From positions 1 through 63,323 of IMG/VR virus record IMGVR_UViG_3300023284_000199: DNA of 63,323 bases; one strand, given 5' to 3'. This DNA is from a virus (lineage: Duplodnaviria > Caudoviricetes). Within the stretch, counting starts at the first letter, position 1. Each line of letters starts with the position of its first letter. Made by a program: the position numbers and the translations under genes. Below are positions 1 to 51,331 of the stretch, piece after piece. The notes below the pieces were generated by a model that searched no databases, was not told the origin of the DNA, and worked only from the letters and a program-made list of their open reading frames with translations.

Positions 1-27
1 CGTGGATTAGTATACTTGTAATGATCA

Positions 28-369
28 TCAACCATCGTCTTCTTCATCCGAGGGATCAAAATCGACAATCAGTTTAATGACCCTGCCATCTTTATTACGC
101 TCGATATAAACCGGATATGAACCGTCTCCGTAGCCTGTTTGAACTATGGCAGCAGCAGGCATGTTAGAACCTTCAGCTTGATACGTTGTCGTACCCTTGT
201 TAGGTCCAACTTCCATTTTTCTCAATACCTGATCACAGAATTCATACCAAGTACCTTTGAAATGATCGGTGTTATCCGCAGTCATGAAATAGCAGGGATC
301 ACCTACAATCATACAGCCTGCATCAACAGGTAACTCTGCTATCTTTTCCAAAACTGGAACCCGCCACAT
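28..369 (-). CDS. DUF4241-like hypothetical early protein
   Basis: 113 aa; motifs VDAGCMIVGDPCY and TGYGDGSYPVY typical of DUF4241-like proteins. Confidence 0.55.
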   Translation of the reverse strand: MWRVPVLEKIAELPVDAGCMIVGDPCYFMTADNTDHFKGTWYEFCDQVLRKMEVGPNKGTTTYQAEGSNMPAAAIVQTGYGDGSYPVYIERNKDGRVIKLIVDFDPSDEEDDG

Positions 370-370
370 A

Positions 371-781
371 TCAGTTACTCCTTATCCAATACATTTCACC
401 ATCATAAGCAATCGAGCAATAGTCCTGCTTTAACTGTTCGGCAGCTTGACACCAATCGATAGCCGTGTAAGGCCAATGTTCCTCGATTACATAAATATCT
501 TTTGCCATATCTTCGGCGTATTCAGTGAAATAATCTTCGGAGATAACTGACTCTCCATGATGAAAATCAGAACTGTAAGACTCAGCTTCTTCGACAAACT
601 CATTCAGAGCTTCTAACTCTTCGTATTCCTCGAAAAGATCGGTTTCGGTTCCATCATCATCATCAACCCAAAATTCGATTTCACCATCTGTACGAAAAGG
701 CGTATGATCAGCAAATAAATCCTTTAAATCCTCAACTCGCTCAAGGATATCTCGACTGTCAATCATATCTCCGAATTCCAT
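371..781 (-). CDS. acidic ArdA-like antirestriction/DNA-mimic protein (C-terminal-domain-like)
   Basis: 136 aa, very D/E-rich; C-terminal EYAEDMAKDI..WPYTAIDW..AAEQLKQDY..DGEMYWIR resembles the ArdA C-terminal domain. Confidence 0.5.
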   Translation of the reverse strand: MEFGDMIDSRDILERVEDLKDLFADHTPFRTDGEIEFWVDDDDGTETDLFEEYEELEALNEFVEEAESYSSDFHHGESVISEDYFTEYAEDMAKDIYVIEEHWPYTAIDWCQAAEQLKQDYCSIAYDGEMYWIRSN

Positions 782-782
782 C

Positions 783-992
783 TTATATCTCCCTGACCTT
801 TACTTTGCCACTCCAACCATATTTTTCAAGCCTTACATGCTTAACCGTATCAAACATAATCACCACCACTGCATCATGAATAACTTCAAAACCGAATTTC
901 TCATAATGAGCAATAGCTTTTTTCATACTTTTGAATTCGGTAAGCATGTTAGCTACAATCCTTTTATCTCTAGTTGGCCGCGATTTTTCCAT
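783..992 (-). CDS. hypothetical protein
   Basis: The track's TTG start at 1082 is a TTGACA promoter element; ATG at 992 (MEKSRPT) is more plausible. Confidence 0.5.
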   Translation of the reverse strand: MEKSRPTRDKRIVANMLTEFKSMKKAIAHYEKFGFEVIHDAVVVIMFDTVKHVRLEKYGWSGKVKVREI

Positions 993-1053
993 TGTTCCAC
1001 AGCTAAGTAAACTCCGCCAACTCCTATGTTTTCCCGCCGCCACGTTAGCTTTA

Positions 1054-1082
1054 CAAATAGGGGGTATTACCTCTAATGTCAA
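1054..1082 (-). promoter_or_regulatory. sigma70-like promoter
   Basis: TTGACA-17nt-TATTTG on minus strand; shares 16-bp AATGTCAAGAACTAAT with the promoter at 1337-1365. Confidence 0.45.
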
Positions 1083-1085
1083 GAA

Positions 1086-1313
1086 CTAATTTTGAAAATG
1101 ACTCATCCGAGTCTGATATCGCAAAAAGTTCTGTACCTGACCGAGAAAAATTACCGCGTTAGCATCTCTCACATAATGCTTCTTTCGCTCAATCATCTTA
1201 TCGGCTTCACGCATGGCTTGCCTTTTGCTAACCGTTGAATCCGATACCAAACTATCAACTAAACCAAACAAATCGAAAGCTTGATTCGTCGTAGTCTCTT
1301 TGGCACTATACAT
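1086..1313 (-). CDS. hypothetical protein
   Basis: 75 aa ORF with AGGAAGG SD. Confidence 0.65.
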   Translation of the reverse strand: MYSAKETTTNQAFDLFGLVDSLVSDSTVSKRQAMREADKMIERKKHYVRDANAVIFLGQVQNFLRYQTRMSHFQN

Positions 1314-1336
1314 AGTTCACCTTCCTTTCTAAAAAC

Positions 1337-1365
1337 AATATGAACTAGATTGCCTTCAATGTCAA
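1337..1365 (-). promoter_or_regulatory. sigma70-like promoter
   Basis: TTGACA-17nt-CATATT on minus strand. Confidence 0.55.
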
Positions 1366-1522
1366 GAACTAATCTCTCTTGGTTCTATCATATTTACTAG
1401 TGTCATCCAATTTCGTCGGATAATCCCTGCCATCATCTTTAAATGTGACCACCCAAGCATATATCAGCATACAAATACCACCACCAATAAAACCACTTAT
1501 GAATCCGAGAAAGAATAGCATC

Positions 1523-1687
1523 TCAATTCCCTTTGAAGCGCCAGTGATCCGGCCCGATGGTTATGAACAAGGTATCCTCGCTCTTGTCACGAACCACCCT
1601 AGCTTGACCTTTGGTGTAGAAGTACCCGAGGTCTTTACGCACTGTGCCATCGTCTGTACGCAGCGTAAACAGCTTCAAACCCTTCAT
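1523..1687 (-). CDS. small hypothetical protein (54 aa, below track cutoff)
   Basis: Read by hand: MKGLKLFTLRTDDG...IGPDHWRFKGN; AAGGA SD; directly follows the 1691 ORF. Confidence 0.55.
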   Translation of the reverse strand: MKGLKLFTLRTDDGTVRKDLGYFYTKGQARVVRDKSEDTLFITIGPDHWRFKGN

Positions 1688-1690
1688 GGT

Positions 1691-2059
1691 CTAATCCTTC
1701 CATCGCTTGTACTGATTTTCAATACGCTTTGCAATCTGTTCGAAGGTCTTCCCGCTATCGTTCATGTTAGCTAACGTGTTTTGATCGAACATAGGCTGAT
1801 TCTTACGGTGGTTCTTACTAGTGTGAAGCAATCCATGTTTTTCGAAAAACTTCTGAGTCAACATGTCACTTTTTGCCACCGACCTAATTGCATTATCACC
1901 GACGATTTCACGAAGAACACCCAAGCAACAATGCCTGACAGAGTTCGTCTTTCGATTGTCAACTTTACGAAGCTTTGCCTTACCTTGAACAAACTTGCCC
2001 GACCTCAAAGCTTCCACCCAATCGATTAGCAACGCCTTACCTGTTTTGTTCGTCTTCAT
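1691..2059 (-). CDS. hypothetical phage protein
   Basis: WVEALRSGKFVQG...HCCLGVL...LANMND.G.TFEQIA pattern common in phage early proteins; AAAGGAG SD before ATG 2059. Confidence 0.7.
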   Translation of the reverse strand: MKTNKTGKALLIDWVEALRSGKFVQGKAKLRKVDNRKTNSVRHCCLGVLREIVGDNAIRSVAKSDMLTQKFFEKHGLLHTSKNHRKNQPMFDQNTLANMNDSGKTFEQIAKRIENQYKRWKD

Positions 2060-2123
2060 AGTCCTGACTCCTTTCAAAAGTCTGTCGTCTGTAATTTATT
2101 ATCGTAGGAATTAAATGGTAGCA

Positions 2124-2402
2124 TCACACCCCATACCTTTCATTTTCAAGCATGTATTCAGCTTCAGTTTGTAAAGTACATGCGACAAATATAGGATCAA
2201 TAACACCATTGTCAACAAGTTCTTTGATAAAATTACCAAAAGCTTGGTCAACAACATCCATTTTTCTTCGGATTTCATCTATCTCAGGTCTGCTATTTTC
2301 TACAGTCTCATGTACAAAATCAGCAAATTCTGATTTAGTAAAACCCGATATTTTAGACTCGGTGTTATCTACCACCAACTTTATCTTATTATTTGGATTC
2401 AT
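2124..2402 (-). CDS. hypothetical protein
   Basis: 92 aa; GGAGG SD; 4-nt overlap with upstream gene. Confidence 0.65.
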   Translation of the reverse strand: MNPNNKIKLVVDNTESKISGFTKSEFADFVHETVENSRPEIDEIRRKMDVVDQAFGNFIKELVDNGVIDPIFVACTLQTEAEYMLENERYGV

Positions 2403-2734
2403 ACCCCGCCCTCCTTTGGATTCATACCCCGGTTCTCTTTTTCAGCCTCTAACTCTGTGATTCGTTCCTCTAACTTTTCGTTTTCCCTATTTAATTCCTT
2501 TATGTATTGTTCTTTTTCTTTCATCTCTTCTTCCATCGAATCAACATCATCAACCATACTACCCATTTCTTGCTCATGATCTTCTTTGGACACATATTCA
2601 CCATTATCTATGTCAGTTTCCAATGCCAAAAGTTTACGCGCCATATCACACAGGACCGAGACAACATCACTCACACAAACCCAATCATATGTCCGCTCAA
2701 AATCATCAATCTCGTAATCTCTCAAATCATCCAT
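2399..2734 (-). CDS. acidic coiled-coil hypothetical protein
   Basis: 111 aa, E/D-rich heptad C-terminus; AAAGGA SD. Confidence 0.65.
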   Translation of the reverse strand: MDDLRDYEIDDFERTYDWVCVSDVVSVLCDMARKLLALETDIDNGEYVSKEDHEQEMGSMVDDVDSMEEEMKEKEQYIKELNRENEKLEERITELEAEKENRGMNPKEGGV

Positions 2735-2951
2735 GTTGAGTTATCCTTTCAATGAGCCTTAGTGATATTCACGGTGGCTCCATCATCAATAAGAATTTGA
2801 ACCTCTTCTGCGGATAAATACGCCCCAATATAGGGGTCTAAAGAGTTTTGTACTTTCGTCACACTAAATGGATGTCTCGACCGGGATGTTTGGTTCAACC
2901 ATACTATAATCTTTGGGCTTGTCATCAGTCTGTCTCCCTTTCGCTTTCCAA

Positions 2952-2980
2952 TACATAGGGCAGCTTACATACACTGTCAA
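2952..2980 (-). promoter_or_regulatory. leftward sigma70-like promoter with a GGGCAGCTT motif in its spacer
   Basis: TTGACA at 2980-2975, 17-nt spacer containing the repeat motif, weak -10. Confidence 0.4.
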
Positions 2981-3150
2981 GGAAAAAATCGCTAAACGAA
3001 AATAAAAAAAAATTCGGGGCAGCTTACTTACAAGGCGGGGCAGCTTCATTACACGCTTCCCAAATATATTGGGGCAGCTTACCTACACGCTTCCCAAATA
3101 TATTGGGGCAGCTTACCTACACGCTCGGGCAGCTTGCCTACACGCATGTT
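2958..3150 (+). repeat. array of six GGGCAGCTTnnnTACA direct repeats, including a 34-bp tandem duplication
   Basis: Copies at 2958, 3016, 3037, 3071, 3105 and 3127; ACACGCTTCCCAAATATATTGGGGCAGCTTACCT x2 at 3051-3118. Confidence 0.9.
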
Positions 3151-3207
3151 CCCGTTCTGTTCTTCGTTCCCGATTTGTTCCCGTTTCGTTCTGTTCACGT
3201 TCTGTTC
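3148..3207 (+). promoter_or_regulatory. array 1 of alphaproteobacterial LexA boxes (GTTC-N7-GTTC), 5 boxes
   Basis: GTTC pairs 11 nt apart: 3148/3159, 3166/3177, 3177/3188, 3188/3199, 3193/3204. Confidence 0.7.
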
Positions 3208-3342
3208 TTTTGAGATGATACAGTTAAGACTCATGACTATTTTCGATGTGTGACATTTTTGCCGAAAGAACAAAACGAGACCTCCCGGCAATTTTGGTTG
3301 TGCCAATCGCCAGAAAATACCCGCAAAAATCGTAGTCAATAG

Positions 3343-3355
3343 AATCAATAGGTTA
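3343..3355 (+). promoter_or_regulatory. IHF consensus site
   Basis: AATCAATAGGTTA matches WATCAANNNNTTR. Confidence 0.45.
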
Positions 3356-3519
3356 GCGGATTCCAGATCTGAGATTCCGAATAGCTGGCGACTTTTACAA
3401 CTTATTGAATCGTTGACAATTTTAGCCTCGCTTGTCCCTGCTGATGCCTGCCAGCTATGCCGACACCTAGCGCAACCGGAATCGCCTTGTGCAGCCTTCC
3501 TAGCGCGTCCTAGAAACAG

Positions 3520-3553
3520 AAAAAGGACTCTTGCCATTGCTGGCGTGAGTCCT
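3520..3553 (-). terminator. intrinsic terminator of the leftward AAA-ATPase operon
   Basis: AGGACTC..GCCA/TGGC..GAGTCCT hairpin next to an A-run (U-run on minus strand). Confidence 0.55.
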
Positions 3554-3636
3554 GTTCCTTGTCCTATTACTGTTGGCGCGATCATGCTGGCTTGTGTTGG
3601 TTCTCCTTCCTTCGGCTGTTGGTCTGTTGGCCGTTT

Positions 3637-3969
3637 CTATGCCCGACTCATATCCATCGCAACGGCGCGCATTTCAGACGCCATCGCATAGACCGACTCT
3701 GCCGGTTCAATGGTGCCAGTTTCAAAGGCGATGAATCCAGACTTACCGACAATGCCTGCCGCGATAATCTGATTCAAGCCTGCGTCTTTCCAGACTTCAT
3801 GCCCGACTTCGAATCTGTCTTGACCGGTTGTTTCATCGTGCCAGAGTCGGACTCGGATTCCACCTTCCCATGAAGCTACAACGGCTCCGATATTGGTTGC
3901 CTTATGCCCGCGTGCTGTTGCATTGGTTTGTCGGGCAGATTCGTCAATTTGAGCGTAAAAGTGACTCAT
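3637..3969 (-). CDS. hypothetical phage protein
   Basis: 110 aa, starts MSHFYAQI..ATARGHK; AAGGA SD. Confidence 0.75.
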   Translation of the reverse strand: MSHFYAQIDESARQTNATARGHKATNIGAVVASWEGGIRVRLWHDETTGQDRFEVGHEVWKDAGLNQIIAAGIVGKSGFIAFETGTIEPAESVYAMASEMRAVAMDMSRA

Positions 3970-3984
3970 GATATTAGTCCTTCC

Positions 3985-4176
3985 TTATAGGTTGATTTTC
4001 GCAACTCGCATAGATTCACAAGTCGCCTGAATCACATTCGAGATATTGCGGTAGGATTCCATTTTCGCTATGCAATCCTCGACACCATAGAAATCGGATT
4101 GATAGGATTCGACAACTGGACTCGCATCAGAGTCATACGAGAGAATCCAGACTGTTAGAATTATCAATTTTAGCAT
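3985..4176 (-). CDS. small protein with N-terminal hydrophobic segment
   Basis: 63 aa; MLKLIILTVWIL; two Cys; GGGAG SD. Confidence 0.6.
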   Translation of the reverse strand: MLKLIILTVWILSYDSDASPVVESYQSDFYGVEDCIAKMESYRNISNVIQATCESMRVAKINL

Positions 4177-4214
4177 GTTCTAATCTCCCGATTTAGCTTG
4201 CCAGGATTAACAAG

Positions 4215-4256
4215 CTAGGAAGGCGAGTCAGACCGGAGTCCGACTCGCTAACCTAG
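4215..4256. repeat. intergenic hairpin built from GANTC sites
   Basis: CTAGG..GCGAGTC.GAC-CGGA-GTC.GACTCGC..CCTAG inverted repeat. Confidence 0.6.
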
Positions 4257-4260
4257 ATAG

Positions 4261-4545
4261 TCAAGCCGCTATCGTTCTGCCGCGTGCTGGCTTCCTAGCC
4301 CTCCGTGGATCGGTTGCAGGATCGATGAAAACATAAACCGCGCCATCGAATTCGACTCGGCCTTCTTTTGCGCGCCGCTCATAATTCGGAAAATAGTGAT
4401 CACAAAACATTGAATCAGGTAATTGATTCTCCTTCTCCCATCGCCCGCACATTTGACGGCCACGGATTGAATCAACCACAAAAGCGCAAGTTTCACAATT
4501 CGGATTCGCGACTGGCTTGGTTTTCAATTTTGATAGGTCAGACAT
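4261..4545 (-). CDS. hypothetical Cys-containing protein
   Basis: 94 aa; CxxC...C..H; GAGGAG SD. Confidence 0.65.
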   Translation of the reverse strand: MSDLSKLKTKPVANPNCETCAFVVDSIRGRQMCGRWEKENQLPDSMFCDHYFPNYERRAKEGRVEFDGAVYVFIDPATDPRRARKPARGRTIAA

Positions 4546-4556
4546 AACAGACTCCT

Positions 4557-5402
4557 CTAATTTAGATAATTGGTGAAAACTTTACGCATATTATCTAGCG
4601 ATGATTCAATGGTTTTGAATCCCTTGTATCGAATCATAGGGACATGAATCACAGATTCATTATCCGGTTCGCTAGGGGTATCGCGGCAATCGCCGTAACC
4701 CGGATACCATCGAGTCGCGTGCTTTGCGTCCTGCTCCAATAATCTGAAATGAAGCATGCGCAAAACCGAGGGATGCGCCAGAATATAAGAGAACCGATCT
4801 AGTTCAAGAAACATACCAGGACTCTTGATAGGAAACTCTTGGCGGATATGTGTACCATCGTTTCCAGCCGTATCGATGTATCCGACTAACTCTATTTGGT
4901 ATCCCGCAGTTTCTAGGGCATCGATCATAGAAACTAGAGCGATGCCACGGTTAACGATGGTGTTATGTTTCACCATTCCCGCAACAGTTAGATTCGCCTC
5001 GATTTTCAAGATAGGCAAAACTGGAGAATTTACTTCTGAAAATGCGAGCATGGATTCTGGATTGCCGATTAGAAAATCAGGGACAGAAGGGACGAATCCA
5101 ACAATCGCATTTTCTAAGACTCGGATAGGTTTCGAATCTGTCAAATGCTTGGCTATATCTAAGCCTTGTCTAATCTTTGCCGTTCCTTCTGGCCAACCAT
5201 AGCGCGCAAGCTTCATAGCATCAGCAAACGAACGAATCCCTTCACCGAACCATTCCGGCGGATGACCTGAAATATTCAGAGTCGACATATGCTCATTAGC
5301 CGATTTTGACGGTTGCTCGCATTGATCAAGAAAAGCATCGAAACTTGGCCACGTTTCCATTTTAGGTTTACCGTTCACTTTCCTTTTCCTACGTCTTGCC
5401 AT
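4557..5402 (-). CDS. VWA-like partner of the MoxR AAA+ ATPase
   Basis: 281 aa, coupled to the ATPase; GFVPSVPDFLIGNPESM, RGIALVSMIDALE..G, LAHPSVLR segments; no canonical MIDAS. Confidence 0.55.
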   Translation of the reverse strand: MARRRKRKVNGKPKMETWPSFDAFLDQCEQPSKSANEHMSTLNISGHPPEWFGEGIRSFADAMKLARYGWPEGTAKIRQGLDIAKHLTDSKPIRVLENAIVGFVPSVPDFLIGNPESMLAFSEVNSPVLPILKIEANLTVAGMVKHNTIVNRGIALVSMIDALETAGYQIELVGYIDTAGNDGTHIRQEFPIKSPGMFLELDRFSYILAHPSVLRMLHFRLLEQDAKHATRWYPGYGDCRDTPSEPDNESVIHVPMIRYKGFKTIESSLDNMRKVFTNYLN

Positions 5403-6736
5403 TACATCGCCGCCTTGATTTTGCTTATCGTGGCCGAGTCAAGGTTGCGCCAGATTATCAGGTTCTCGACTTCCTTGAATCCCATGCCTTGAACATCGAT
5501 CAGACGCGAACCTTTTTCAGATGCCCTAGGACTCACAAGATGCTTGAGTCCAATGCTGGCGACTGCCTTGCGAGCCGACTGGACATAATCCACCCATTGC
5601 ATGTTCGTTGAAATCGCACGCTCTAACGACTCGTCAATATCGATAGGCAATTGAATAAAGCGGTCTAGAGTCGTTGCGTCCAATTGAACACGACCTACAT
5701 ATTCACGATCTTGGCCGAGTCCCCACGTGTTCGCGCAAGCTATGCACTTGAAGTCTGGGTGTTGCTTCGCCATGCCATTTGCAAAAGCACAATAACCGTT
5801 CGCGAGTGCCGCATTGACAGCTAACAAAGCATTGGGCGAACAGCCGTCCATTTCATCGAACACGAATCCGCCGCCTTGCGTGAAAGCACGGTAGAAATCG
5901 GTTTCAATATAGTTCCCGTTCGCGTCCATGTATCCAAAAATAGTAAACTTGGTATCAAAAGCACCTTGTAGATAAAACGGAATCCCTAACGCTTCGAAAG
6001 CTTGGACGGCCATATGTGACTTGCCCGTTCCAGAAGTGCCGACTAGATAAACGTGACTCTCCTGTAGAAGCTTAATCAATCGCGGCAATTCATGGTGAGT
6101 GAATCCTTCGACTGCCCGAGTCTCGCCATCACTTTCGACATGGACAACAGTAGGGGTCGGCGCGGAATGTTCCAGAATAAGGCGAACCGCTTGTGATTCC
6201 GTAAGTCCATGTTCTCCGATTAATTCGACAACTCGCGACTCGTCTAGATCAGCCGTTGTGTTTGCCGCTTCTGCTATTGCCCGGATTGCATCTTCCAAAA
6301 CGCTACCGTTGCCACCTGTAGGCTTCACTGGCGCGGATTCCGCAAGTTCTGATGCGTCCCTATCATCTAATACGGTAGCCAGCGTATCACCTTCCCTGAT
6401 GCTTTGATCAAATTCAGTACTTGTGACAACTTCATCGTTAATTGTTGCGATTGCAGAGTCATTACCGAAAGCAGACTCGCCAGTTTGCGCGGATTCTGTC
6501 CATTGGTAATTCTCAATAGTGAATCCCTGATCTACAAAATTCTTCCTAACTTTGACAAAATATCGACGATGATTCCACATTTTCGAAAGAGTCGTATGTC
6601 TCATTTTCTCGACTCGGTCGTCCGGGAATCCCAATTCTTTAGCCCATAACCTCGCTATATCAATGTTGTCATAATCGATGACCGTCTGACCATGTTCGCC
6701 TAGTAGGTCTTGATAATCTCTCGATAAAGTAAGCAT
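5402..6736 (-). CDS. MoxR/CbbQ-type AAA+ ATPase
   Basis: Walker A GTSGTGKS, Walker B FVFDEMD, sensor CANT, arginine finger LDATTLDRF; long N-terminal extension. Confidence 0.9.
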   Translation of the reverse strand: MLTLSRDYQDLLGEHGQTVIDYDNIDIARLWAKELGFPDDRVEKMRHTTLSKMWNHRRYFVKVRKNFVDQGFTIENYQWTESAQTGESAFGNDSAIATINDEVVTSTEFDQSIREGDTLATVLDDRDASELAESAPVKPTGGNGSVLEDAIRAIAEAANTTADLDESRVVELIGEHGLTESQAVRLILEHSAPTPTVVHVESDGETRAVEGFTHHELPRLIKLLQESHVYLVGTSGTGKSHMAVQAFEALGIPFYLQGAFDTKFTIFGYMDANGNYIETDFYRAFTQGGGFVFDEMDGCSPNALLAVNAALANGYCAFANGMAKQHPDFKCIACANTWGLGQDREYVGRVQLDATTLDRFIQLPIDIDESLERAISTNMQWVDYVQSARKAVASIGLKHLVSPRASEKGSRLIDVQGMGFKEVENLIIWRNLDSATISKIKAAM

Positions 6737-6886
6737 TTTCTAATGTCCTTTGATAGGGGTTGTAAGGCGTCTTATAGATGACGCAATAGGACATAGACCA
6801 TAGATAGGAAAATGAGTCAATAGAAGAAAAGACTCTTATTGCATGAATCGTGCCAAGTGAGGCAATCTAGGGATTCTGTAGTGATA

Positions 6887-7070
6887 CCTATATTACCTAT
6901 ATACTGGCGCATTATATAGGTATATAGGTAGGCTAAGCGGTTGATTCTAAAGAGATAATCGCTGCTCCTATATGCCTATATGGGATTGTGAAAATGTTGA
7001 AATATAGGAAGGGTGATTTATTGTTTAGAATCAATTACTTAGATTATCCTATATGCCTATATTACCTATA
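6887..7070. repeat. cluster of 10 CCTATA/TATAGG hexamers in direct and inverted orientation with two IHF consensus sites
   Basis: CCTATA at 6887, 6896, 6967, 6975, 7048, 7056, 7065; TATAGG at 6915, 6923, 7003; IHF matches 6934-6946 (-) and 7029-7041 (+). Confidence 0.75.
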
Positions 7071-7387
7071 CTAAAGAAGAGTCTTTCGCTTAGACTACAG
7101 ACTCATAGTGACTCGTTTCAGGATAATAGGTTGGATCTTGGACAGTGAATCGGGGTGATGTTAGGGGCAAAATTGACCACATCTGCCAAGCCTGAAATGG
7201 ACAGAAAATCACAAGACCCTTGCAATTGGGTTAAATATCCCCACATAATAAGACACTTGGACACAAAAACCCTTAAAAGGGGATAGAAAATAGCTAATTT
7301 GGTGGGTTTCTTGCTTCCCGTTGGATTTGGTATCCTTAGAATGTACCTAATAGTTAGCGAAATTCTTGAAAAAATCTCAATTTAATT

Positions 7388-7426
7388 GCAGCTTCAATAC
7401 AAGAGTTAGAGCAGCTTCAATACAAG
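7388..7426 (+). repeat. GCAGCTTCAATACAAG direct repeat x2 (variant of the GGGCAGCTT motif)
   Basis: Copies at 7388 and 7411. Confidence 0.85.
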
Positions 7427-7427
7427 A

Positions 7428-7535
7428 GGTCTGTTCTCCGTTCTCGGTCTGTTCTCCGTTCTCGGTCTGTTCTCCGTTCTCGGTCTGTTCTCCGTTCTCG
7501 GTCTGTTCTCCGTTCTCGGTCTGTTCTCCGTTCTC
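7428..7535 (+). repeat. 18-bp tandem repeat x6 (GGTCTGTTCTCCGTTCTC); LexA-box array 2
   Basis: Perfect tandem copies; each of 5 junctions forms GTTC-TCGGTCT-GTTC. Confidence 0.95.
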
Positions 7536-7628
7536 GGTCGGCCTCTGGCCTCGTGGGCTGTCGCTGGTCGGCCTCTGGCCTCGTGGGCTGTCGCTGGTCG
7601 GCCTCTGGCCTCGTGGGCTGTCGCTGGT
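7536..7628 (+). repeat. 30-bp GC-rich tandem repeat x3 (GGTCGGCCTCTGGCCTCGTGGGCTGTCGCT)
   Basis: Perfect tandem copies directly after the 18-bp array. Confidence 0.95.
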
Positions 7629-7632
7629 TGAT

Positions 7633-7815
7633 TCAATAGCCTAGATAATTCATCACGGCCTTCGAGGTGGCGGGAATAAATTCGAACTCATAAAAAGATT
7701 CGACTTTTCCGTCTTCGCGCCTTTTGGTGAACCACGTTTTGACTAAAATGTTGTTATGCTGACCTATGCAGCATTTTACTCCGTGGCGTTCCAAGCAGTT
7801 GATAAGTGCGTTCAT
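7633..7815 (-). CDS. hypothetical protein
   Basis: 60 aa, AAGGA SD, ends ..VMNYLGY; upstream TTGAAA-17-CATATC promoter-like sequence at 7876. Confidence 0.65.
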   Translation of the reverse strand: MNALINCLERHGVKCCIGQHNNILVKTWFTKRREDGKVESFYEFEFIPATSKAVMNYLGY

Positions 7816-7919
7816 TGGTCTGTTTCCTTGTGTTGCTCTATGACTTAGATATGGGCCACGTCTGTTGCGTTTTCAATAGTCCTGGCAGAAAAAGCTCAGA
7901 ACGTGATAAATGTGTCACA

Positions 7920-7979
7920 GTTCACCTTTTGTTCCCCTAAGCCGGTCCCGCGAGAACAAAAGGTGAACAAACCATGAAC
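7920..7979. promoter_or_regulatory. LexA-box array 3 (inverted pair plus one chained box)
   Basis: GTTCACCTTTTGTTC (7920-7934) and its perfect inverse GAACAAAAGGTGAAC (7954-7968), plus GAACAAACCATGAAC (7965-7979). Confidence 0.7.
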
Positions 7980-8128
7980 ATTGGGCAGCTTGCTAATATA
8001 CTGTTGATATATCAGTGTGACATAAATACAATGCATAAATATCACTGTGATATAAATGTCACACTCTTGATATCTAGCTGAAATCTGACTGATATATCAC
8101 TAGTGTATCGTTGCATAAATGTCACATA

Positions 8129-8229
8129 GAACAGAACAGGAACAAAGCATGAACAGATGAGAACGAATGAGAACAAACCATGAACAAAACGGGAACAAAA
8201 GGTGAACATAAGGAGAACAAACCCAGAAC
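8129..8229 (-). promoter_or_regulatory. LexA-box array 4: chained GAAC-N7-GAAC, 7 boxes
   Basis: GAAC at 8129, 8140, 8151, 8161, 8171, 8182, 8193, 8204, 8215, 8226 with variable spacers. Confidence 0.75.
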
Positions 8230-8542
8230 ACGACGATGGGGGGCCTATGGCTTTCTGAAACTAGAGCTTTTTTATTTTTTATAACCTTTTTGACAGCGGC
8301 GGCATGTGTGATTTTTATAACACAAAACACAGCTTTTTTCATGTTTTGAAACTATTTTCGCAATGGGAAATAAAAGCGAAATTTTTTATAGTTAATTCCC
8401 ATAGTAGAAAGAATCGTTTCATATTTTTTGAAATGATTCAAACAGGCTATAACCTTTATATTATAATTTTAAAACAGGCGATAACCTTCATGTTATTTTT
8501 AAGGGACAGTAGGGGCAGCTTGCCTGCACGCATGTTTTGACA

Positions 8543-8571
8543 TTGACGCCAATCACTTTTTAATGTATAGT
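8543..8571 (+). promoter_or_regulatory. sigma70-like promoter preceded by a GGGCAGCTT motif
   Basis: TTGACG-17nt-TATAGT; motif copy at 8513-8536. Confidence 0.6.
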
Positions 8572-8600
8572 AAATGTTTTTCGAAATGTGAGGTGACAAT

Positions 8601-48529: not shown

Positions 48530-48605
48530 GGGAGTATAGCCCAACGGCAGAGGCGGCAAGCTTAGACCTTGTACAGTGTAGGTTCGAATCCTATTACTCC
48601 TACCA
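48530..48605 (+). tRNA. tRNA-Leu(TAG), short variable loop
   Basis: Cloverleaf; loop CT-TAG-AC; TTCGAAT; encoded CCA. Confidence 0.88.
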
Positions 48606-48610
48606 ATTAT

Positions 48611-48686
48611 GGGGATATAGCCCAACGGCAGAGGCATCGGGTTTAAATTCCAATCAGTGTAGGTTCGACTCCTACTATCCCTACCA
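48611..48686 (+). tRNA. tRNA-Leu(TAA), short variable loop
   Basis: Paralog of the previous gene; loop TT-TAA-AT; CCA. Confidence 0.85.
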
Positions 48687-48692
48687 ATTAGA

Positions 48693-48950
48693 GTGTGTGA
48701 TATGGCATACTGTAGACAAATTGAAAGCGAGTGTGACGTTTACTGTTATGAAATGCGTGTAGACGGTAAATCAAAATGGATCACTCATTGGGTTGGATTT
48801 ACTGAAACTTTTTCAGACCCTAGTTTATATGAGTTTCGCCATCGTTTAAAAACAATCCGTTCATATGGATATCTAGTACCTGACAGAGTATTTGAACGGA
48901 TAGAAAGAGAAATGGCGGGACAAAAAAGGGAAAGTGTGGTGACAGAATGA
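48693..48950 (+). CDS. hypothetical protein within the tRNA cluster
   Basis: MAYCR...CDVYCYE..L...GY.VPDRVFERIE pattern. Confidence 0.6.
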   Translation: MCDMAYCRQIESECDVYCYEMRVDGKSKWITHWVGFTETFSDPSLYEFRHRLKTIRSYGYLVPDRVFERIEREMAGQKRESVVTE

Positions 48951-49138
48951 CTGCTATATGTCATGATTGTGCAATTGCGAAAGGAGCAAGAGAAATTAAA
49001 GGTCATGTATGTACTATGAGTATGGGCTTATGTACCTATTGCAAAGAAGAAAAAGTTATATCAGGTACAAATGATTATCAGTGGCCTTTATCTAATGGAA
49101 AAGGATTTCACCCTATATTTAAATGGGGTTGGGATTAA
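48947..49138 (+). CDS. small Cys-rich (zinc-binding-like) protein
   Basis: CHDC...C...CTYC; ATGA overlap. Confidence 0.6.
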   Translation: MTAICHDCAIAKGAREIKGHVCTMSMGLCTYCKEEKVISGTNDYQWPLSNGKGFHPIFKWGWD

Positions 49139-49142
49139 CTAA

Positions 49143-49216
49143 GAAGCGGTGGCCGATTGGCTAGGTGACAGATTGCAAATCTGTTTAAGTGGGTTCGATT
49201 CCCACCTGCTTTTCCA
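49143..49216 (+). tRNA. tRNA-Cys(GCA)
   Basis: Loop TT-GCA-AA; U73; CCA. Confidence 0.9.
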
Positions 49217-49217
49217 A

Positions 49218-49293
49218 GGATCGGTAGCTCAGAGGCCAGAGCAGAGGACTTTTAATCCTCGTGCCGTGAGTTCAAATCTCACTCGATCCTCCA
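49218..49293 (+). tRNA. tRNA-Lys(TTT)
   Basis: Loop CT-TTT-AA; CCA. Confidence 0.92.
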
Positions 49294-49297
49294 ATTA

Positions 49298-49373
49298 TCG
49301 ACGGTGTGGTGTAATGGCAGCACAAAAGACTGTGACTCTTTTAGTGTGGGTTCGAATCCCATCATCGCGACCA
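49298..49373 (+). tRNA. tRNA-His(GTG), no G-1, A73, bulged acceptor stem
   Basis: Loop CT-GTG-AC; CG[A]CGGTG/CATCGCG; CCA. Confidence 0.78.
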
Positions 49374-49409
49374 AAAATACTATGCAGTGAATAACAGGAA
49401 AGGAATGAA

Positions 49410-49692
49410 TATGGAAGCGCATGAAATAGATAAATATTTTCCTGACTGTGAAAGTCTAGAAAGTGTTGTAAACGAAATGTACACTAGGCTGTTGAAATAT
49501 ATATATATATGTCATGTGGTAAACTGTGAAGGAATTGATTTTCTAGAAATGCATATACATGATAGCGATCCTTTATTTACAGATTTAGAAAAAGAATTCA
49601 TGGAAATGGCTGGAAAAAATGCAGATTTATTAGCTAATAGATCATGGAAAAGAAAGAAGGCAAAGTTAAAAGTTAATCTTGGTGTAGCTTAA
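49410..49692 (+). CDS. hypothetical protein within the tRNA cluster
   Basis: ORF 49387-49692 in the track; AAGGA SD suggests a start around 49405-49411 (approximate); overlaps tRNA-Pro. Confidence 0.5.
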
Positions 49693-49751
49693 CGGCAAAG
49701 TGATGGACTTGGAATCCATAGACGAAGGTTCGACTCCTTCCACCTTGACCA
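49678..49751 (+). tRNA. tRNA-Pro(TGG)
   Basis: Loop CT-TGG-AA; two U-U pairs in the acceptor stem; CCA. Confidence 0.85.
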
Positions 49752-49771
49752 ATTTTTTTTTAATAAAGTGG

Positions 49772-49800
49772 TTGACAACGAAAGGCAGGATCACTATATT
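49772..49800 (+). promoter_or_regulatory. second sigma70 promoter in the tRNA cluster
   Basis: TTGACA-17nt-TATATT. Confidence 0.75.
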
Positions 49801-49805
49801 AAAGT

Positions 49806-49887
49806 TTCGGATGGGCGGTTGACCGTATCGCACTGGTCGGATAGTAAGGCCAGAATAAAATGGGTTTGATTCCCATATCCGTGACCA
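49806..49887 (+). ncRNA. tRNA-like RNA with expanded 9-nt anticodon loop
   Basis: CGGAT/ATCCG acceptor, GCG/CGC D-stem, CTGGTC-GGATAGTAA-GGCCAG, ATGGG-TTTGATT-CCCAT, ACCA end. Confidence 0.6.
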
Positions 49888-49896
49888 AGTTTTATG

Positions 49897-49970
49897 GGAC
49901 GATTATGCATTTGCTAATGCAGCGCCATATTGGGGCGTGAAAGTCGGTTGAATTCCGGCATTGTCCGACA
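49897..49970 (+). ncRNA. divergent tRNA-like RNA (loop AT-ATT-GG), no CCA
   Basis: GGACGAT/ATTGTCC, GCAT/ATGC, GCGCC/GGCGT, GTCGG-TTGAATT-CCGGC. Confidence 0.55.
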
Positions 49971-49975
49971 ATTTT

Positions 49976-50049
49976 GTGGGTGTAGTTCAAAGGCAGAGCA
50001 AGAGGTTTCCACCCTCTAAACGCGGGTTCGAATCCTGTCACCCATACCA
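49976..50049 (+). tRNA. tRNA-Gly(TCC)
   Basis: Loop TT-TCC-AC; A73; CCA. Confidence 0.88.
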
Positions 50050-50051
50050 AT

Positions 50052-50156
50052 ACGTGTAGTTGTTAGAATCTATGGGCCGTCACATTAGATGATGGATTAG
50101 GCCGAAGTGGTTAGCGATTCACTATAGATTTGGGCAAAGCAGTACCACATACACGT
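50052..50156 (+). ncRNA. candidate multi-stem structured RNA
   Basis: ACGTGTA/TACACGT closing stem, AATCTATG/TATAGATT inner stem, two terminal hairpins. Confidence 0.45.
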
Positions 50157-50158
50157 TT

Positions 50159-50235
50159 GCTGTAGGGGCCATAGCGGCAGAGGCACTGGATTGTCGATCC
50201 AGAGATAGCGGGTTCAAATCCTGTCTACAGCGCCA
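50159..50235 (+). tRNA. tRNA-Asp(GTC)
   Basis: Loop TT-GTC-GA; G73; CCA. Confidence 0.88.
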
Positions 50236-50240
50236 ATTTT

Positions 50241-50286
50241 GAAGCCTGTTATCATGGTACTTAGTGCGGTTAACAGGTTTCTTTTT
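50241..50286 (+). terminator. hairpin with U-tract (terminator or processing stem)
   Basis: GAAGCCTGTTA...TAACAGGTTTC followed by T5. Confidence 0.5.
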
Positions 50287-50287
50287 A

Positions 50288-50398
50288 GTGGAGGGTTTCT
50301 AGGCTGGTAGGAAGTCTATATAGGAAGACGGTTTTCGGAGGTGTCCTATGTCCTTGATAATCGTTTAGACTTTGGGTTCAATCCCCTAACTTTTCCGC
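50288..50398 (+). ncRNA. tRNA-like scaffold with a large, possibly pseudoknotted insert at the anticodon position
   Basis: GTGGAGGG/TTTTCCGC, D-like CTAGGCTGGTAG, AAGTCTA/TAGACTT stem, GGG-TTCAATC-CCC T-arm. Confidence 0.5.
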
Positions 50399-50410
50399 AT
50401 AAACTTTTAT

Positions 50411-50486
50411 TTCTAGGTAGCTAATTCGGCAAAGCGACTGGCTGTTAACCAGGGATATGTAGGTTCAAGTCCTACCCTAGAAGCCA
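50411..50486 (+). tRNA. tRNA-Asn(GTT)
   Basis: Loop CT-GTT-AA; G73; CCA. Confidence 0.9.
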
Positions 50487-50491
50487 ATTAT

Positions 50492-50543
50492 GGGGCGTAA
50501 ACTGGTAATTCTAGATTGTAGGTTCGATTCCTACTGCGCTCCC
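50492..50543 (+). ncRNA. anticodon-armless mini tRNA-like RNA with G3.U70
   Basis: GGGGCGTA/TGCGCTCC stem, D-loop-like AACTGGTAA, canonical T-arm GTAGG-TTCGATT-CCTAC, no anticodon arm. Confidence 0.6.
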
Positions 50544-50551
50544 TACGTTAC

Positions 50552-50642
50552 GGATAGACAAGCCAATGGGCGGTGGTCGTGGTTTTGAAAACCATTAGGA
50601 GTAATCAGTCTCGTGGGGGTTCGACTCCCTCTCTATCCGCCA
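50552..50642 (+). tRNA. tRNA-Ser(TGA)
   Basis: Loop TT-TGA-AA; long variable arm; G73; CCA. Confidence 0.88.
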
Positions 50643-50755
50643 ATTCGAAAGGAACTGAAATGGAATATCTATTTGGTATGTTATGCGTATTGGTTCTTTT
50701 AGGTTTAGGACCACCCATTTTACACAAACTCAATGTGTGGATTTGGAATGATTAA

Positions 50756-50829
50756 TCTGGTGTAGCTCAATGGCAGAGCAAGTGGCTGATGACCGCTGTA
50801 CGAGGGTTCGATTCCTTCTACCAGTACCA
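50756..50829 (+). tRNA. tRNA-Ile(GAT)
   Basis: Loop CT-GAT-GA; CCA. Confidence 0.87.
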
Positions 50830-50833
50830 AAAT

Positions 50834-50904
50834 GCCTGGGCGTGGTCGGGCGGAAGTCTCATAAGCTTCCTAGCTGAGTGGTTCAATTCCCTCTCTTGGC
50901 ACCA
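50834..50904 (+). tRNA. atypical tRNA(CAT) (Met-type) with reduced D-arm
   Basis: GGAAGT-CTCATAA-GCTTCC arm; bulged T-stem with GGTTCAATTCC; CCA. Confidence 0.6.
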
Positions 50905-50908
50905 ATTC

Positions 50909-50998
50909 GGATAGGCAAACCAATAGGCGGTGGTCGCTGTTTGCTAGACAGTTAGGAGTGTAAGTCTCGTGGGGGTTCGACTCCCTCTCTATCCGCCA
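50909..50998 (+). tRNA. tRNA-Ser(GCT)
   Basis: Paralog of Ser(TGA); loop TT-GCT-AG; long variable arm; CCA. Confidence 0.88.
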
Positions 50999-51066
50999 AG
51001 TTTTAATGTCCCATATGTGGGATAATGTTGCATTAAAGCATCATAAGGAGGTTAAATGTTGCTTTT

Positions 51067-51326: not shown

Positions 51327-51331
51327 ATTAA

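What the first reader, a model, noticed from the sequence alone, without database searches (positions are those of the whole stretch)
3148..8229. About 20 alphaproteobacterial LexA boxes in four arrays: SOS-repressor sponge or coat
Seen (hand count): GTTC-N7-GTTC or its reverse occurs 5 times at 3148-3207, 5 times in the 18-bp tandem repeat, 3 times at 7920-7979 and 7 times at 8129-8229. In arrays 1 and 4 the 7-nt spacers differ while the 11-nt register is kept, so this is not simple slippage. Known: GTTC-N7-GTTC is the alphaproteobacterial SOS box, and host promoters normally carry one or two. Inference: the arrays titrate LexA to switch on SOS functions without DNA damage, or polymerise LexA on incoming DNA, or couple early expression to host SOS state. 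I know of no described phage LexA-box array of this size.
Basis: partly seen in the sequence, partly recalled or inferred. Interest (0 to 1): 0.88.

Follow-up and report, generated by a model that had tools for sequence, protein, structure and literature searches.

The report
Phased TGTTC site arrays in phage
An uncultured tailed phage carries dense, helically phased arrays of the short word TGTTC around its early promoters and at the far end of its early operon, a layout kept in related phages, which points to cooperative coating by a DNA-binding protein that could be the phage's own or the host's SOS repressor LexA.

Summary
Only the 11-base spacing is enriched, and only inside the arrays.

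The LexA reading cannot be decided. The window is a whole, 83% complete virus record of 40% G+C with no known host. Its nearest cultured relatives infect Pseudomonas and Xanthomonas.

Points in favour of a host factor:
- The arrays fit the alphaproteobacterial LexA core.
- They recur in two relatives.
- A similar cluster sits in an unrelated phage of the alphaproteobacterium Loktanella.
- One 18-base unit pair is found in 77 viral contigs against 7 for a reversed control.

Points against LexA specifically:
- GTTC also repeats at 5-7 bases and as palindromes.
- The arrays flank rather than cover the promoter-like sites.
- None of the 20 pairs starts GTTCTA, as 21 of 24 lexA-promoter boxes do.
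- P4 origin iterons are the same word, TGTTCACC.

My odds: arrays for a phage-encoded binder 0.4, LexA 0.3. A side finding is that GANTC is about sixfold enriched in the bracketed operon.

The parts
2958..3145 (+). Six copies of GGGCAGCTTAC(C/A/T)TACAC, at 34- and 21-base periods, directly abutting array 1.
   Evidence: families D3, D6, D9
3148..3207 (+). Array 1: nine GTTC words giving five GTTC-N7-GTTC pairs, at steps of 6,5,7,11,11,5,6,5. It lies beyond the last gene of the GANTC-rich leftward operon.
3249..3262 (+). TGTGACATTTTTGC, the inverted copy of GCATAAATGTCACA at 8113-8126. With array 1 it forms an inverted copy of the array 4 module, 5 kb away.
   Evidence: I2, I3, I7, I8, I11
3228..7147 (.). 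GANTC-dense segment: 81 sites, 20.7 per kb, against 3.3 per kb elsewhere. It covers five leftward genes and non-coding DNA.
4557..5402 (-). DUF7192 protein of 281 aa, shared with both relatives.
5402..6736 (-). AAA_5 / CobS-like ATPase of 444 aa, shared with both relatives.
6880..7070 (.). CCTATAT / ATATAGG repeat family in non-coding DNA.
   Evidence: D12, D14, I1
7388..7428 (+). Two copies of GCAGCTTCAATACAAGAG abutting array 2.
   Evidence: D8
7428..7539 (+). Array 2: a perfect 18-base tandem repeat GGTCTGTTCTCCGTTCTC, 6.2 copies, with 12 GTTC and 5 N7 pairs.
7536..7628 (+). A perfect 30-base tandem repeat, 3.1 copies, directly after array 2.
7633..7815 (-). First gene of the leftward operon, 60 aa, with no family match.
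7920..7979 (.). Array 3: two GTTC units and their perfect 15-base inverted copy (7920-7934 and 7954-7968), plus one more GAAC unit.
   Evidence: I10; -14.3 kcal/mol, z -4.53
7983..8126 (.). Core between arrays 3 and 4. It holds one GGGCAGCTTGCTAATATAC, the inverted repeats GATATATCA..TGTGACATAAAT, and the best promoter-like hexamer pairs in both directions.
   Evidence: I5, I12. Promoter-like sites in the whole region number 11 against 10.8 in shuffles, so they are leads only.
8129..8229 (-). Array 4: eleven GTTC words on the minus strand (GAAC on the plus strand), giving seven N7 pairs. Six words in a row, five steps, hold an exact 11-base register.
   Evidence: D2
8240..8500 (.). AT-rich stretch beside array 4, with the lowest G+C of the region (0.287 at 8300-8449).
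8513..8571 (+). A further GGGCAGCTTGCCTGCACGCATGTT copy, followed by the promoter-like TTGACG-17-TATAGT before the first clear rightward gene (8601).
   Evidence: D6

Best explanation
The arrays are cooperative protein-binding arrays of the operator or iteron kind, and they belong to the phage's early control region. A sequence-specific protein, most likely phage-encoded and of the winged-helix kind, reads the word TGTTC once per helical turn.

The protein would coat the clusters on both sides of the divergent early promoters (arrays 3 and 4, and array 2 just inside the leftward transcript). It would also coat the inverted copy at the far end of the leftward operon (array 1). Bound clusters could pair across the 5 kb between them. 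That would set or shut off early transcription, and it might mark the replication origin next to the AT-rich stretch, as the ori and crr clusters of P4 do.

Shown: the anatomy, the enrichment, the conservation in relatives, and the inverted pairing. Inferred: that a protein binds, that it is phage-encoded, and the looping.
For: 1. Phasing. Steps of 11, and some of 10, bases put successive sites on one face of the helix. The flanks of GTTC are also constrained: T comes before it in 19 of 25 units, and G never comes after it.

2. Placement. All four arrays are non-coding and sit at operon boundaries. Arrays 3 and 4 flank the core that holds the divergent promoter-like sites and the operator-like inverted repeats. 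Array 1 plus TGTGACATTTTTGC is an inverted copy of array 4 plus GCATAAATGTCACA, 5 kb away.

3. Conservation in relatives.
- The first relative is contig G011:C12, with identities of terminase 59%, portal 55%, capsid 76%, AAA 39% and DUF7192 27-30%. It has 9 of its 14 N7 pairs within 5016-5132, between the same AAA/DUF7192 operon and the rightward genes. There they form a roughly 50-base imperfect palindrome (z -9.48).
- The second relative is L461 (0.51 G+C), which shares the AAA, DUF7192 and terminase ORF families. It has 6 pairs against 0.20 expected. Four lie in the divergent region, and one lies beyond the end of the DUF7192 gene in the opposite orientation.
- The other repeat families of the region are not shared with the first relative, judging by my reading.

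4. Precedent for the same word. The annotated type 1 origin repeats of phage P4 are TGTTCACC in 11 of 16 copies. They stand 10-11 bases apart, in both orientations, in two clusters about 4.7 kb apart, beside AT-rich DNA. That the P4 alpha protein binds them is my recollection.

5. A different 11-base array in the same place. A terminase relative at 48% identity (L299) has TAAATTCATCA 7 times and ATTTAATACAT 6 times upstream of its terminase gene. This is what phage-specific binders would give.

6. Features LexA does not need. GTTC at 5-7 base steps, and head-to-head palindromes, suit a multimeric iteron binder better than a dimer on an N7 direct repeat.
Against: No binder was found.
- The window has no match to LexA_DNA_bind, Trans_reg_C or GcrA at E up to 1.
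- It has no relative of P4 alpha; tblastn gave only chance hits.
- None of its small early proteins has a family.

The only early proteins shared by the window and its relatives are the AAA ATPase and DUF7192. The blastp match between the two AAA proteins covers only 322 residues; no alignment coordinates were printed, so which end lies outside it is not shown. None of 46 other phage loci with this kind of ATPase has any array.

The same unit pair occurs in 77 viral contigs, and 36 of those carry arrays. No ORF family of 80 aa or more outside the arrays is present in more than 15 of the 39 array-bearing sequences, within the DNA held. A proteome-unrelated Loktanella phage carries the same 15-mer cluster. 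Both facts fit a host factor better.

Two caveats soften this. The window is 83% complete and the first relative is a 44-kb fragment, so a binder gene may lie in unseen DNA. Small DNA-binding proteins also escape BLAST.
Confidence: 0.4

Rival explanations
1. Host LexA is the binder. The host would be an alphaproteobacterium whose LexA dimers fill the GTTC-N7-GTTC pairs. By my hand count, about 14 dimers fit per genome without overlap. Binding would either hold early transcription until the host is in SOS, or soak up LexA as the phage DNA multiplies and so switch on SOS functions.
For: The core motif and spacing are those of the alphaproteobacterial box (seen directly).

The T-rich 3' half of the spacer is shared with real boxes. 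In low-G+C alphaproteobacteria the boxes look like the array units: TTTGTTCTTTTTTTGTTC before recA in G016, and TGTTCTTGTTTTGTTCAC before lexA in G046.

Loktanella phage pCB2051-A, whose host is a member of the Rhodobacterales, has six GTTC words with three N7 pairs at 56705-56760. The cluster includes GTTCATGGTTTGTTC twice, the same 15-mer as at window 7965 and 8171, although the proteome is unrelated.

The 18-mer occurs in 77 contigs against 7 for its reversed control. The terminase of the largest array-bearing group is nearest to those of Pelagibacter and Roseobacter phages, at 35-39% identity.

No phage protein is seen to travel with the arrays.

GANTC, the site of the alphaproteobacterial CcrM methylase, is strongly enriched in the bracketed operon of the window and of one relative.
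Against: The host is unknown. The nearest cultured relatives infect Pseudomonas, Xanthomonas, Stenotrophomonas and Variovorax. No sequencing run was listed that could place the phage.

None of the 20 array pairs begins GTTCTA, against 21 of 24 lexA-promoter boxes. recA boxes are more varied, with 3 of 9 beginning GTTCTA.

Real promoters carry one box (22 of 27) or two (1 of 27), placed on the promoter. Here the arrays flank the promoter-like hexamers.

The GTTC words at 5-7 base steps, the palindromes, and the inverted bracket of a 5-kb operon are not explained.

Two Pelagibacter and two Roseobacter phages have 0-4 scattered pairs, the same as the control pattern.

Phased TTGTTC triplets in bacterial genomes are not special to alphaproteobacteria: by my tally of the record titles, 9 of the 120 loci listed.

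GANTC is depleted, not enriched, in the third relative: 8 against 23.9 expected.
Confidence: 0.3
2. Another host regulator is the binder. One candidate is a response regulator of the OmpR/PhoB kind, which binds head-to-tail on direct repeats one helical turn apart. Another is a nucleoid protein drawn to phased T-tracts.
For: The units have about 7 conserved and 4 looser bases at an 11-base period. The arrays spread across many contigs with no shared phage protein. That such regulators use 11-base direct repeats is recalled knowledge, not tested here.
Against: I know of no named regulator with TGTTC(A/C/T)C as its half-site in a plausible host. The host is unknown. The window encodes no Trans_reg_C domain.
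Confidence: 0.12
3. There is no dedicated binder. The arrays would be slippage-prone simple repeats and phased T-tracts that bend DNA near the promoters, or they would act through hairpins in DNA or RNA.
For: Array 2 and the adjoining 30-base repeat are perfect tandem copies. The copy number of units differs among the three relatives. Array 3 and the relative's arrays fold into strong hairpins. T-runs recur every 11 bases.
Against: The word GTTC is invariant while the spacers vary, and the same word is kept in three relatives of 0.40-0.51 G+C. Array 4 has no fold at all: 0 kcal/mol, with all 200 shuffles folding at least as well. Arrays 1 and 2 have few T-runs.
Confidence: 0.1

Closest known systems
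Alphaproteobacterial LexA operator (GTTC-N7-GTTC direct repeat)
   Same: It has the same four-base word, the same spacing, the same direct orientation, and a T-rich 3' half of the spacer.
   Different: A host promoter carries one box, rarely two, placed on the promoter. A small peptide gene in five genomes has three phased words. Here there are 9-12 words per cluster, also at 5-7 base steps and as palindromes, placed beside rather than on the promoter-like sites. None of the 20 pairs begins GTTCTA. The host is not known to be an alphaproteobacterium.
Phage P4 ori and crr type 1 iterons (TGTTCACC)
   Same: It uses the same word. GTTCACC occurs in 3 of the 25 units of arrays 1, 3 and 4, once preceded by A (AGTTCACC at 7919) and so not an exact TGTTCACC. 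TGTTC occurs in 19 of the 25. The steps are 10-11 bases, both orientations are used, the two clusters lie kilobases apart, and there is AT-rich DNA alongside.
   Different: No relative of the P4 alpha primase-helicase is found in the window or in the array-bearing loci held. P4 has 5-6 copies per cluster. That alpha binds these repeats is recalled, not tested here.
Phage GIL01 promoter P1, repressed by host LexA with phage gp7
   Same: It is a phage that places a set of host SOS boxes at an early promoter. I saw only the search listing and abstract of PMC4551915.
   Different: It has a few boxes of the Gram-positive palindromic kind, on the promoter of a temperate phage, and it needs a phage co-factor. 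It has no phased arrays.
Arrays of short repeats bound by ribbon-helix-helix proteins (plasmid R1 parC 11-base iterons; omega heptads of pSM19035)
   Same: Many short units stand in tandem, in direct and inverted order, and are coated cooperatively to build a higher-order complex. This comparison is recalled, not tested.
   Different: Those belong to plasmid partition and copy control, next to their ParR or omega genes. No partition gene or ribbon-helix-helix gene was recognised here.

Membership tests
Alphaproteobacterial LexA operator | Direct repeat GTTC-N7-GTTC | tested here: met
   20 pairs lie in the four arrays, and the window holds 24 against 1.63 expected. Only the 11-base spacing is enriched.
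Alphaproteobacterial LexA operator | Flank and spacer preferences of real boxes | tested here: inconclusive
   21 of 24 lexA-promoter boxes begin GTTCTA, but 0 of 20 array pairs do. recA boxes vary more (3 of 9 GTTCTA, 3 of 9 GTTCTT). Both sets share the T-rich 3' spacer with the arrays.
Alphaproteobacterial LexA operator | The box lies on the promoter of the regulated gene | tested here: inconclusive
   The best promoter-like hexamers (8004-8032 plus strand, 8023-7995 minus strand, 8543-8571 plus strand) lie between or beyond the arrays, not under them. The scan finds no more sites than shuffles do, 11 against 10.8.
Alphaproteobacterial LexA operator | The host has a LexA of the alphaproteobacterial kind | not testable with these tools
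   This is an uncultured virus record, and no run was listed. Relatives sit in bins of many phyla.
Alphaproteobacterial LexA operator | LexA binds | not testable with these tools
   This needs a gel shift or ChIP.
P4-type origin iterons | TGTTCACC-like word repeated at 10-11 bases in both orientations, in two separate clusters | tested here: met
   GTTCACC is present in 3 of 25 units (one preceded by A, so 2 exact TGTTCACC), and TGTTC in 19 of 25. The clusters lie at 3148-3207 and 7920-8229.
P4-type origin iterons | An alpha-type primase-helicase with an origin-binding domain is encoded | tested here: not met
   tblastn of P4 alpha against the window gave only chance hits, the best at E 0.26 for the last 140 residues. 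The record is 83% complete, so the gene could lie in the missing part.
P4-type origin iterons | The site acts as a replication origin | not testable with these tools
   The strand and skew switch at 6-8 kb coincides with the switch in transcription direction. DnaA boxes are not enriched, 19 against 21.
Operator or iteron arrays in general | Repeated units in helical phase, non-coding, conserved in relatives while neighbouring DNA changes | tested here: met
OmpR/PhoB-type direct-repeat boxes | A cognate regulator is present | tested here: not met
   The window has no Trans_reg_C match at E up to 1. A host regulator cannot be tested.

The most novel reading that the evidence does not exclude
A lineage of uncultured aquatic phages, and other phages that carry the same unit, has turned stretches of its own DNA into arrays of host-repressor sites. 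About 14 LexA dimers per genome would bind in clusters that flank the early promoters and bracket the early operon. The phage could then read the host's SOS state, or soak up LexA as it replicates.

In two members the bracketed operon is in addition packed with GANTC, the site of the cell-cycle methylase CcrM. The same cassette would then engage two master regulators of alphaproteobacteria.
Probability: 0.2. Interest if true: 0.85.

Novelty: new variant of a known kind. Interest (0 to 1): 0.6.

Why it matters
The arrays are real, strongly non-random and kept in related phages. One of their unit pairs is eleven times commoner in viral contigs than its reversed control. This is therefore a recurrent control element of uncultured phages whose reader is unknown.

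If a phage protein reads it, the arrays mark the early switch or the origin of a phage group that has no genetic system.

If host LexA reads it, this would be, as far as my two literature searches show, the first phage found to carry arrays of SOS boxes, and a new way to sense or manipulate the host damage response.

There is a cultured test case. Loktanella phage pCB2051-A carries a small cluster of the same units.

The GANTC-packed operon inside the bracket is a second, independent sign of selection acting on the DNA itself.

Tried and rejected
Searches that did not help place the phage or its arrays:
- DNA similarity of 2900-8600 to cultured phages gave no match.
- Array DNA as a BLAST query found only pCB2051-A and chance hits.
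- Terminase relatives carried no phased GTTC runs: 0 of 14 viral loci and 0 of 80 genome loci. The genome locus from the first relative starts just right of its arrays.
- 0 of 46 AAA relatives carried arrays.
- A first terminase scan of genome contigs found nothing. A second, with an alignment, gave bins of many phyla and so said nothing about the host.
- Sequencing runs: none was listed.

Searches for other kinds of element in the region:
- Rfam gave only one weak microRNA chance hit.
- DnaA boxes number 19 against 21 expected.
- CtrA boxes (TTAA-N7-TTAA) number 5 against 3.6 expected.

Searches for a binder:
- P4 alpha and the pCB2051-A primase are unrelated to each other, and neither has a relative in the 77 loci.
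- PDB sequence and NCBIfam searches of the early proteins and the 551-aa protein gave nothing useful.
- I tried to find a protein common to all array-bearing contigs. Single linkage chained all 39 sequences into one network, at first through false ORFs that read through the arrays themselves. I therefore cannot say how many independent phage groups carry the arrays.

Readings I rejected:
- The arrays do not code for protein. An 11-base period cannot keep a reading frame, and the ORFs over array 4 match only other arrays.
- A transposon with sub-terminal repeats is unlikely. No transposase was recognised, and the cassette keeps its place in three relatives.

Tools and papers:
- Paper searches for YuA repeats, TGTTCACC and P4 iterons gave nothing usable.
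- Supplements were not opened.

Full report

Yes. GTTC-N7-GTTC occurs 24 times in the window, against 1.63 expected from dinucleotide shuffles. The largest shuffle value is 5, and none of 100 shuffles reaches 24.

The other four are at 13489, 20818, and 52544 with 52555. The last two form a three-word run inside the ribonucleotide reductase gene.

GTTC as a word is not unusually common: 268 and 261 on the two strands, against 231 expected. What is enriched is the spacing. A start-to-start distance of 11 has 24 pairs, against 0-8 for distances 4-10 and 12-17. Outside the arrays, distance 11 has 4 pairs and is not enriched.

**2. What the arrays look like**

Array 2 is a perfect 18-base tandem repeat of 6.2 copies, followed at once by a perfect 30-base repeat of 3.1 copies. 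Arrays 1, 3 and 4 are not simple copies, because their spacers differ.

The 11-base register is only partly kept. The steps between GTTC words are 6,5,7,11,11,5,6,5 in array 1 and 5,6,11,10,10,11,11,11,11,11 in array 4.

Across the 25 units of arrays 1, 3 and 4:
- the base before GTTC is T in 19 and C in 5;
- the base after GTTC is never G;
- the bases two and three places after GTTC are C in 13 and G in 11 respectively;
- the three bases further upstream are mostly T.

The unit is therefore close to TTYTGTTCHCGT. The invariant element is the word, not the N7 pair.

Array 3 is a perfect 15-base palindrome of two units per arm, with a DNA fold of -14.3 kcal/mol and z -4.53. Array 4 has no fold.

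**3. Where the arrays sit**

The window is a whole virus record: 63,323 bases, linear, with completeness estimated at 83%. Genes run leftward from about 7815 to 1, rightward from about 8300 to 51800, and leftward again beyond that.

The rightward block holds terminase, portal, capsid and tail genes, followed by 22 tRNA genes. The far leftward block holds ribonucleotide reductase, MazG, a family A DNA polymerase, an exonuclease and a gp2.5-like single-strand binding protein.

The arrays are all non-coding.
- Arrays 3 and 4 flank a 150-base core. The core holds the best promoter-like hexamer pairs in both directions, and inverted repeats of the form GATATATCA..TGTGACATAAAT. The promoter scan finds no more sites in the whole region than shuffles do, so these are leads only.
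- An AT-rich stretch follows array 4 (G+C 0.287).
- Array 2 lies just past the first leftward gene.
- Array 1 lies 5 kb away, beyond the 110-aa gene that ends the run of GANTC-rich leftward genes.

Array 1 together with TGTGACATTTTTGC is an inverted copy of array 4 together with GCATAAATGTCACA (I2, I3, I7, I8, I11). The arrays thus bracket a leftward early operon, which includes an AAA_5/CobS-like ATPase and a DUF7192 protein.

A second repeat family, GGGCAGCTT..TACAC, abuts arrays 1, 2 and 3. It recurs before the promoter-like site at 8543.

**4. Relatives**

The capsid protein is 70.6% identical to those of Pseudomonas YuA-like phages. The terminase is 53% identical to those of Pseudomonas phages of the PaMx11 kind. 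The polymerase is 37% identical to those of Variovorax, Stenotrophomonas and Xanthomonas phages. There is no DNA-level match to cultured phages.

Two uncultured relatives keep the arrays.

The first is a 44.4-kb contig placed in a bin labelled Bacteroidota (G011:C12, G+C 0.44).
- It has the same order of DUF7192, AAA, arrays, then rightward genes. Identities are terminase 59%, portal 55% and capsid 76%.
- 9 of its 14 N7 pairs lie within 5016-5132. There they form an imperfect 50-base palindrome (z -9.48).
- A textbook TTGACA-17-TATAAT lies 200 bases further on. From general knowledge, that does not fit a Bacteroidota host.

The second is L461 (10.5 kb, G+C 0.51).
- It shares the AAA, DUF7192 and terminase ORF families with the window.
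- It has 6 N7 pairs against 0.20 expected. Four lie in the divergent region, and GAACAAAAGGGGAAC lies beyond the end of the DUF7192 gene, in the opposite orientation.

More distant relatives lack the arrays:
- 0 of 14 viral and 0 of 80 genome-contig terminase relatives have three phased GTTC.
- 0 of 46 loci with a related ATPase have them.
- One terminase relative (L299, 48% identity) has 11-base arrays of other words at the matching place.

**5. How widespread the unit is**

The exact 18-mer TTTGTTCACCTTTTGTTC, which the window carries, occurs in 77 viral contigs. Its reversed control occurs in 7.

Of the 77 contigs, 36 have at least one cluster of three or more N7 pairs. That makes 41 clusters, of which 3 lie in open frames of 150 aa or more. 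The G+C range is 0.36-0.56.

Within the DNA held, no ORF family of 80 aa or more outside the arrays is present in more than 15 of the 39 array-bearing sequences. That largest family is a terminase. Single linkage joins all 39 sequences, so I cannot count independent groups.

The window shares ORF families only with L461 and the first relative (AAA, DUF7192), with L461, L482 and L503 (a terminase piece), with L446 (one ORF), and with pCB2051-A (exonuclease).

**6. The test of LexA**

The literature gives GTTC-N7-GTTC as the alphaproteobacterial box. I read passages.

I checked the box directly in sampled genomes.
- In 41 alphaproteobacterial genomes, 28 had a LexA domain.
- I examined 27 of the 29 places listed. 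I dropped the unpublished G054 and a second, 85-aa hit in G028.
- Of these 27, 23 have the box within 260 bases upstream: one box in 22 and two in 1.
- 21 of the 24 boxes begin GTTCTA, and the commonest form is TGTTCTAGTTTGGTTC.
- None of the 20 array pairs begins GTTCTA.
- Upstream of recA, 9 of 29 loci have a perfect box (G054 dropped; 8 further places had no locus). These boxes vary more, and in low-G+C genomes they resemble the array units, as in TTTGTTCTTTTTTTGTTC.

The arrays thus meet the core definition and fall within the range of real boxes, but they do not carry the most conserved flank.

The host cannot be named.

Hints toward an alphaproteobacterium:
- Loktanella phage pCB2051-A has six GTTC words with three N7 pairs at 56705-56760, in a repeat-rich non-coding end. 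The cluster includes GTTCATGGTTTGTTC twice, the same 15-mer as in the window. Only an exonuclease is weakly shared between the two proteomes.
- The terminase of the largest array-bearing group is nearest to those of Pelagibacter and Roseobacter phages, at 35-39% identity.

Against:
- Two Pelagibacter and two Roseobacter phages have 0-4 scattered pairs, like the control pattern.
- Only 9 of the 120 genome loci with three phased TTGTTC are alphaproteobacterial, by my tally of titles.
- A Limosilactobacillus prophage carries a similar array.

**7. The rival precedent**

The P4 record annotates 16 type 1 origin repeats, of which 11 read TGTTCACC. They stand 10-11 bases apart, in both orientations, and they lie in ori and in crr about 4.7 kb away. 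The same word therefore serves a phage replication protein in E. coli.

The window has no relative of P4 alpha. It also has no LexA, OmpR-type or GcrA domain and no N6/N4 methylase. The record is incomplete, and a primase-helicase, which YuA has, is not in view.

**8. Verdict on mechanism**

I take the arrays to be cooperative protein-binding arrays of the early control region. They would be coated once per helical turn and paired across the operon. They would act on early transcription and perhaps mark the origin.

On the identity of the binder I give:
- a phage-encoded protein: 0.4;
- host LexA: 0.3;
- another host regulator: 0.12;
- no dedicated binder: 0.1.

The anatomy, the enrichment and the conservation are shown. 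Binding, looping and the binder's identity are inferred.

**9. Side finding: GANTC in the bracketed operon**

GANTC is packed into the bracketed segment. There are 81 sites between 3228 and 7147 (20.7 per kb), against 197 in the other 59.4 kb (3.3 per kb).

In the AAA, DUF7192 and 110-aa genes the counts are 23, 14 and 10. These exceed every one of 300 synonymous-codon shuffles, whose maxima are 15, 9 and 8. The sites fall in all three reading frames. Terminase, capsid and polymerase genes show no excess.

The first relative shows the same pattern. It has 74 sites in its first 5 kb, then about 2.6 per kb from just past its arrays onward. Both of its shared genes exceed all shuffles.

The segment is also richer in CpG-containing words.

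In L461 the opposite holds. It has 8 sites against 23.9 expected, and none before position 4250.

I did not explain this. It shows selection on the DNA itself, and the site is that of CcrM-type and HinfI-type enzymes (recalled).

**10. Limits**

- Supplementary files of papers were not opened.

Noticed in passing
window 3228-7147; G011:C12 (L312) 1-5000; L461 1-4249: GANTC is about sixfold enriched in the leftward early operon bracketed by the arrays: 81 sites at 20.7 per kb, against 3.3 per kb elsewhere. It is beyond all 300 synonymous shuffles in three genes. The first relative shows the same (74 sites in 5 kb). In the third relative GANTC is depleted instead (8 against 23.9 expected, none in the operon). 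This is selection on the DNA in opposite directions in related phages.
   Followed up: partly
window 48530-52243: A cluster of 22 tRNA genes lies at the end of the rightward block.
   Followed up: no
L254 3062-3196, L208 998-1132, L223 6196-6328, L286 6608-6741, L272 (minus strand) about 940-1030: Five alphaproteobacterial genomes have a TTGAC(A/T)-type -35-like hexamer (TTGACA in 3 of the 4 printed), then three phased GAACAA words, directly upstream of a conserved 28-aa hydrophobic peptide gene (MSDLVQDV..WIGAM). It looks like a small SOS-controlled membrane peptide. The lexA gene is elsewhere in these genomes.
   Followed up: partly
L299 3986-5620: A terminase relative has two near-perfect 11-base tandem arrays, TAAATTCATCA 7 times and ATTTAATACAT 6 times. 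They flank a 1.5-kb stretch of odd, A-rich, CACAA-rich sequence.
   Followed up: no
L024, L028, L029, L040, L082, L097, L104, L112, L113 and others: About twenty viral contigs of 0.26-0.53 G+C share a different phased array, TGTTGTTCA(N)TT, 4-5 times at an 11-base period.
   Followed up: no
window 7366-7644: The perfect 18-base and 30-base tandem repeats are both multiples of three, and they lie in open frames on both strands. The minus-strand frame would read PRTENR six times and PATAHEARGR three times. It starts with TTG, overlapping the stop of the 60-aa gene, so it is probably not a gene.
   Followed up: partly
NC_020853 56510-56958: The right end of Loktanella phage pCB2051-A is non-coding and holds three repeat families side by side: four 25-base repeats containing GAGTCATGACTC, the GTTC cluster, and three 44-base repeats. 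GACTCATGA also stands beside array 1 of the window, at 3228.
   Followed up: no
L033 4858-5560: A 63.6-kb viral contig of 0.56 G+C has two GTTC arrays. Each is followed by a GC-rich stretch and by GTGTAGCTAGCTAC, which resembles the reverse complement of the window's GGGCAGCTTACCTACAC repeat. The contig has no YuA-like capsid gene.
   Followed up: no
NC_010116 22639-22666, 29058-29085, 31098-31125: Phage YuA has an annotated 28-base intergenic repeat, described as a sigma-70 promoter needing a phage cofactor. It may be a counterpart of the window's GGGCAGCTT repeats.
   Followed up: no
window 52544-52569: Three phased GTTC words lie inside the ribonucleotide reductase coding sequence. This is probably chance or coding constraint.
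   Followed up: no
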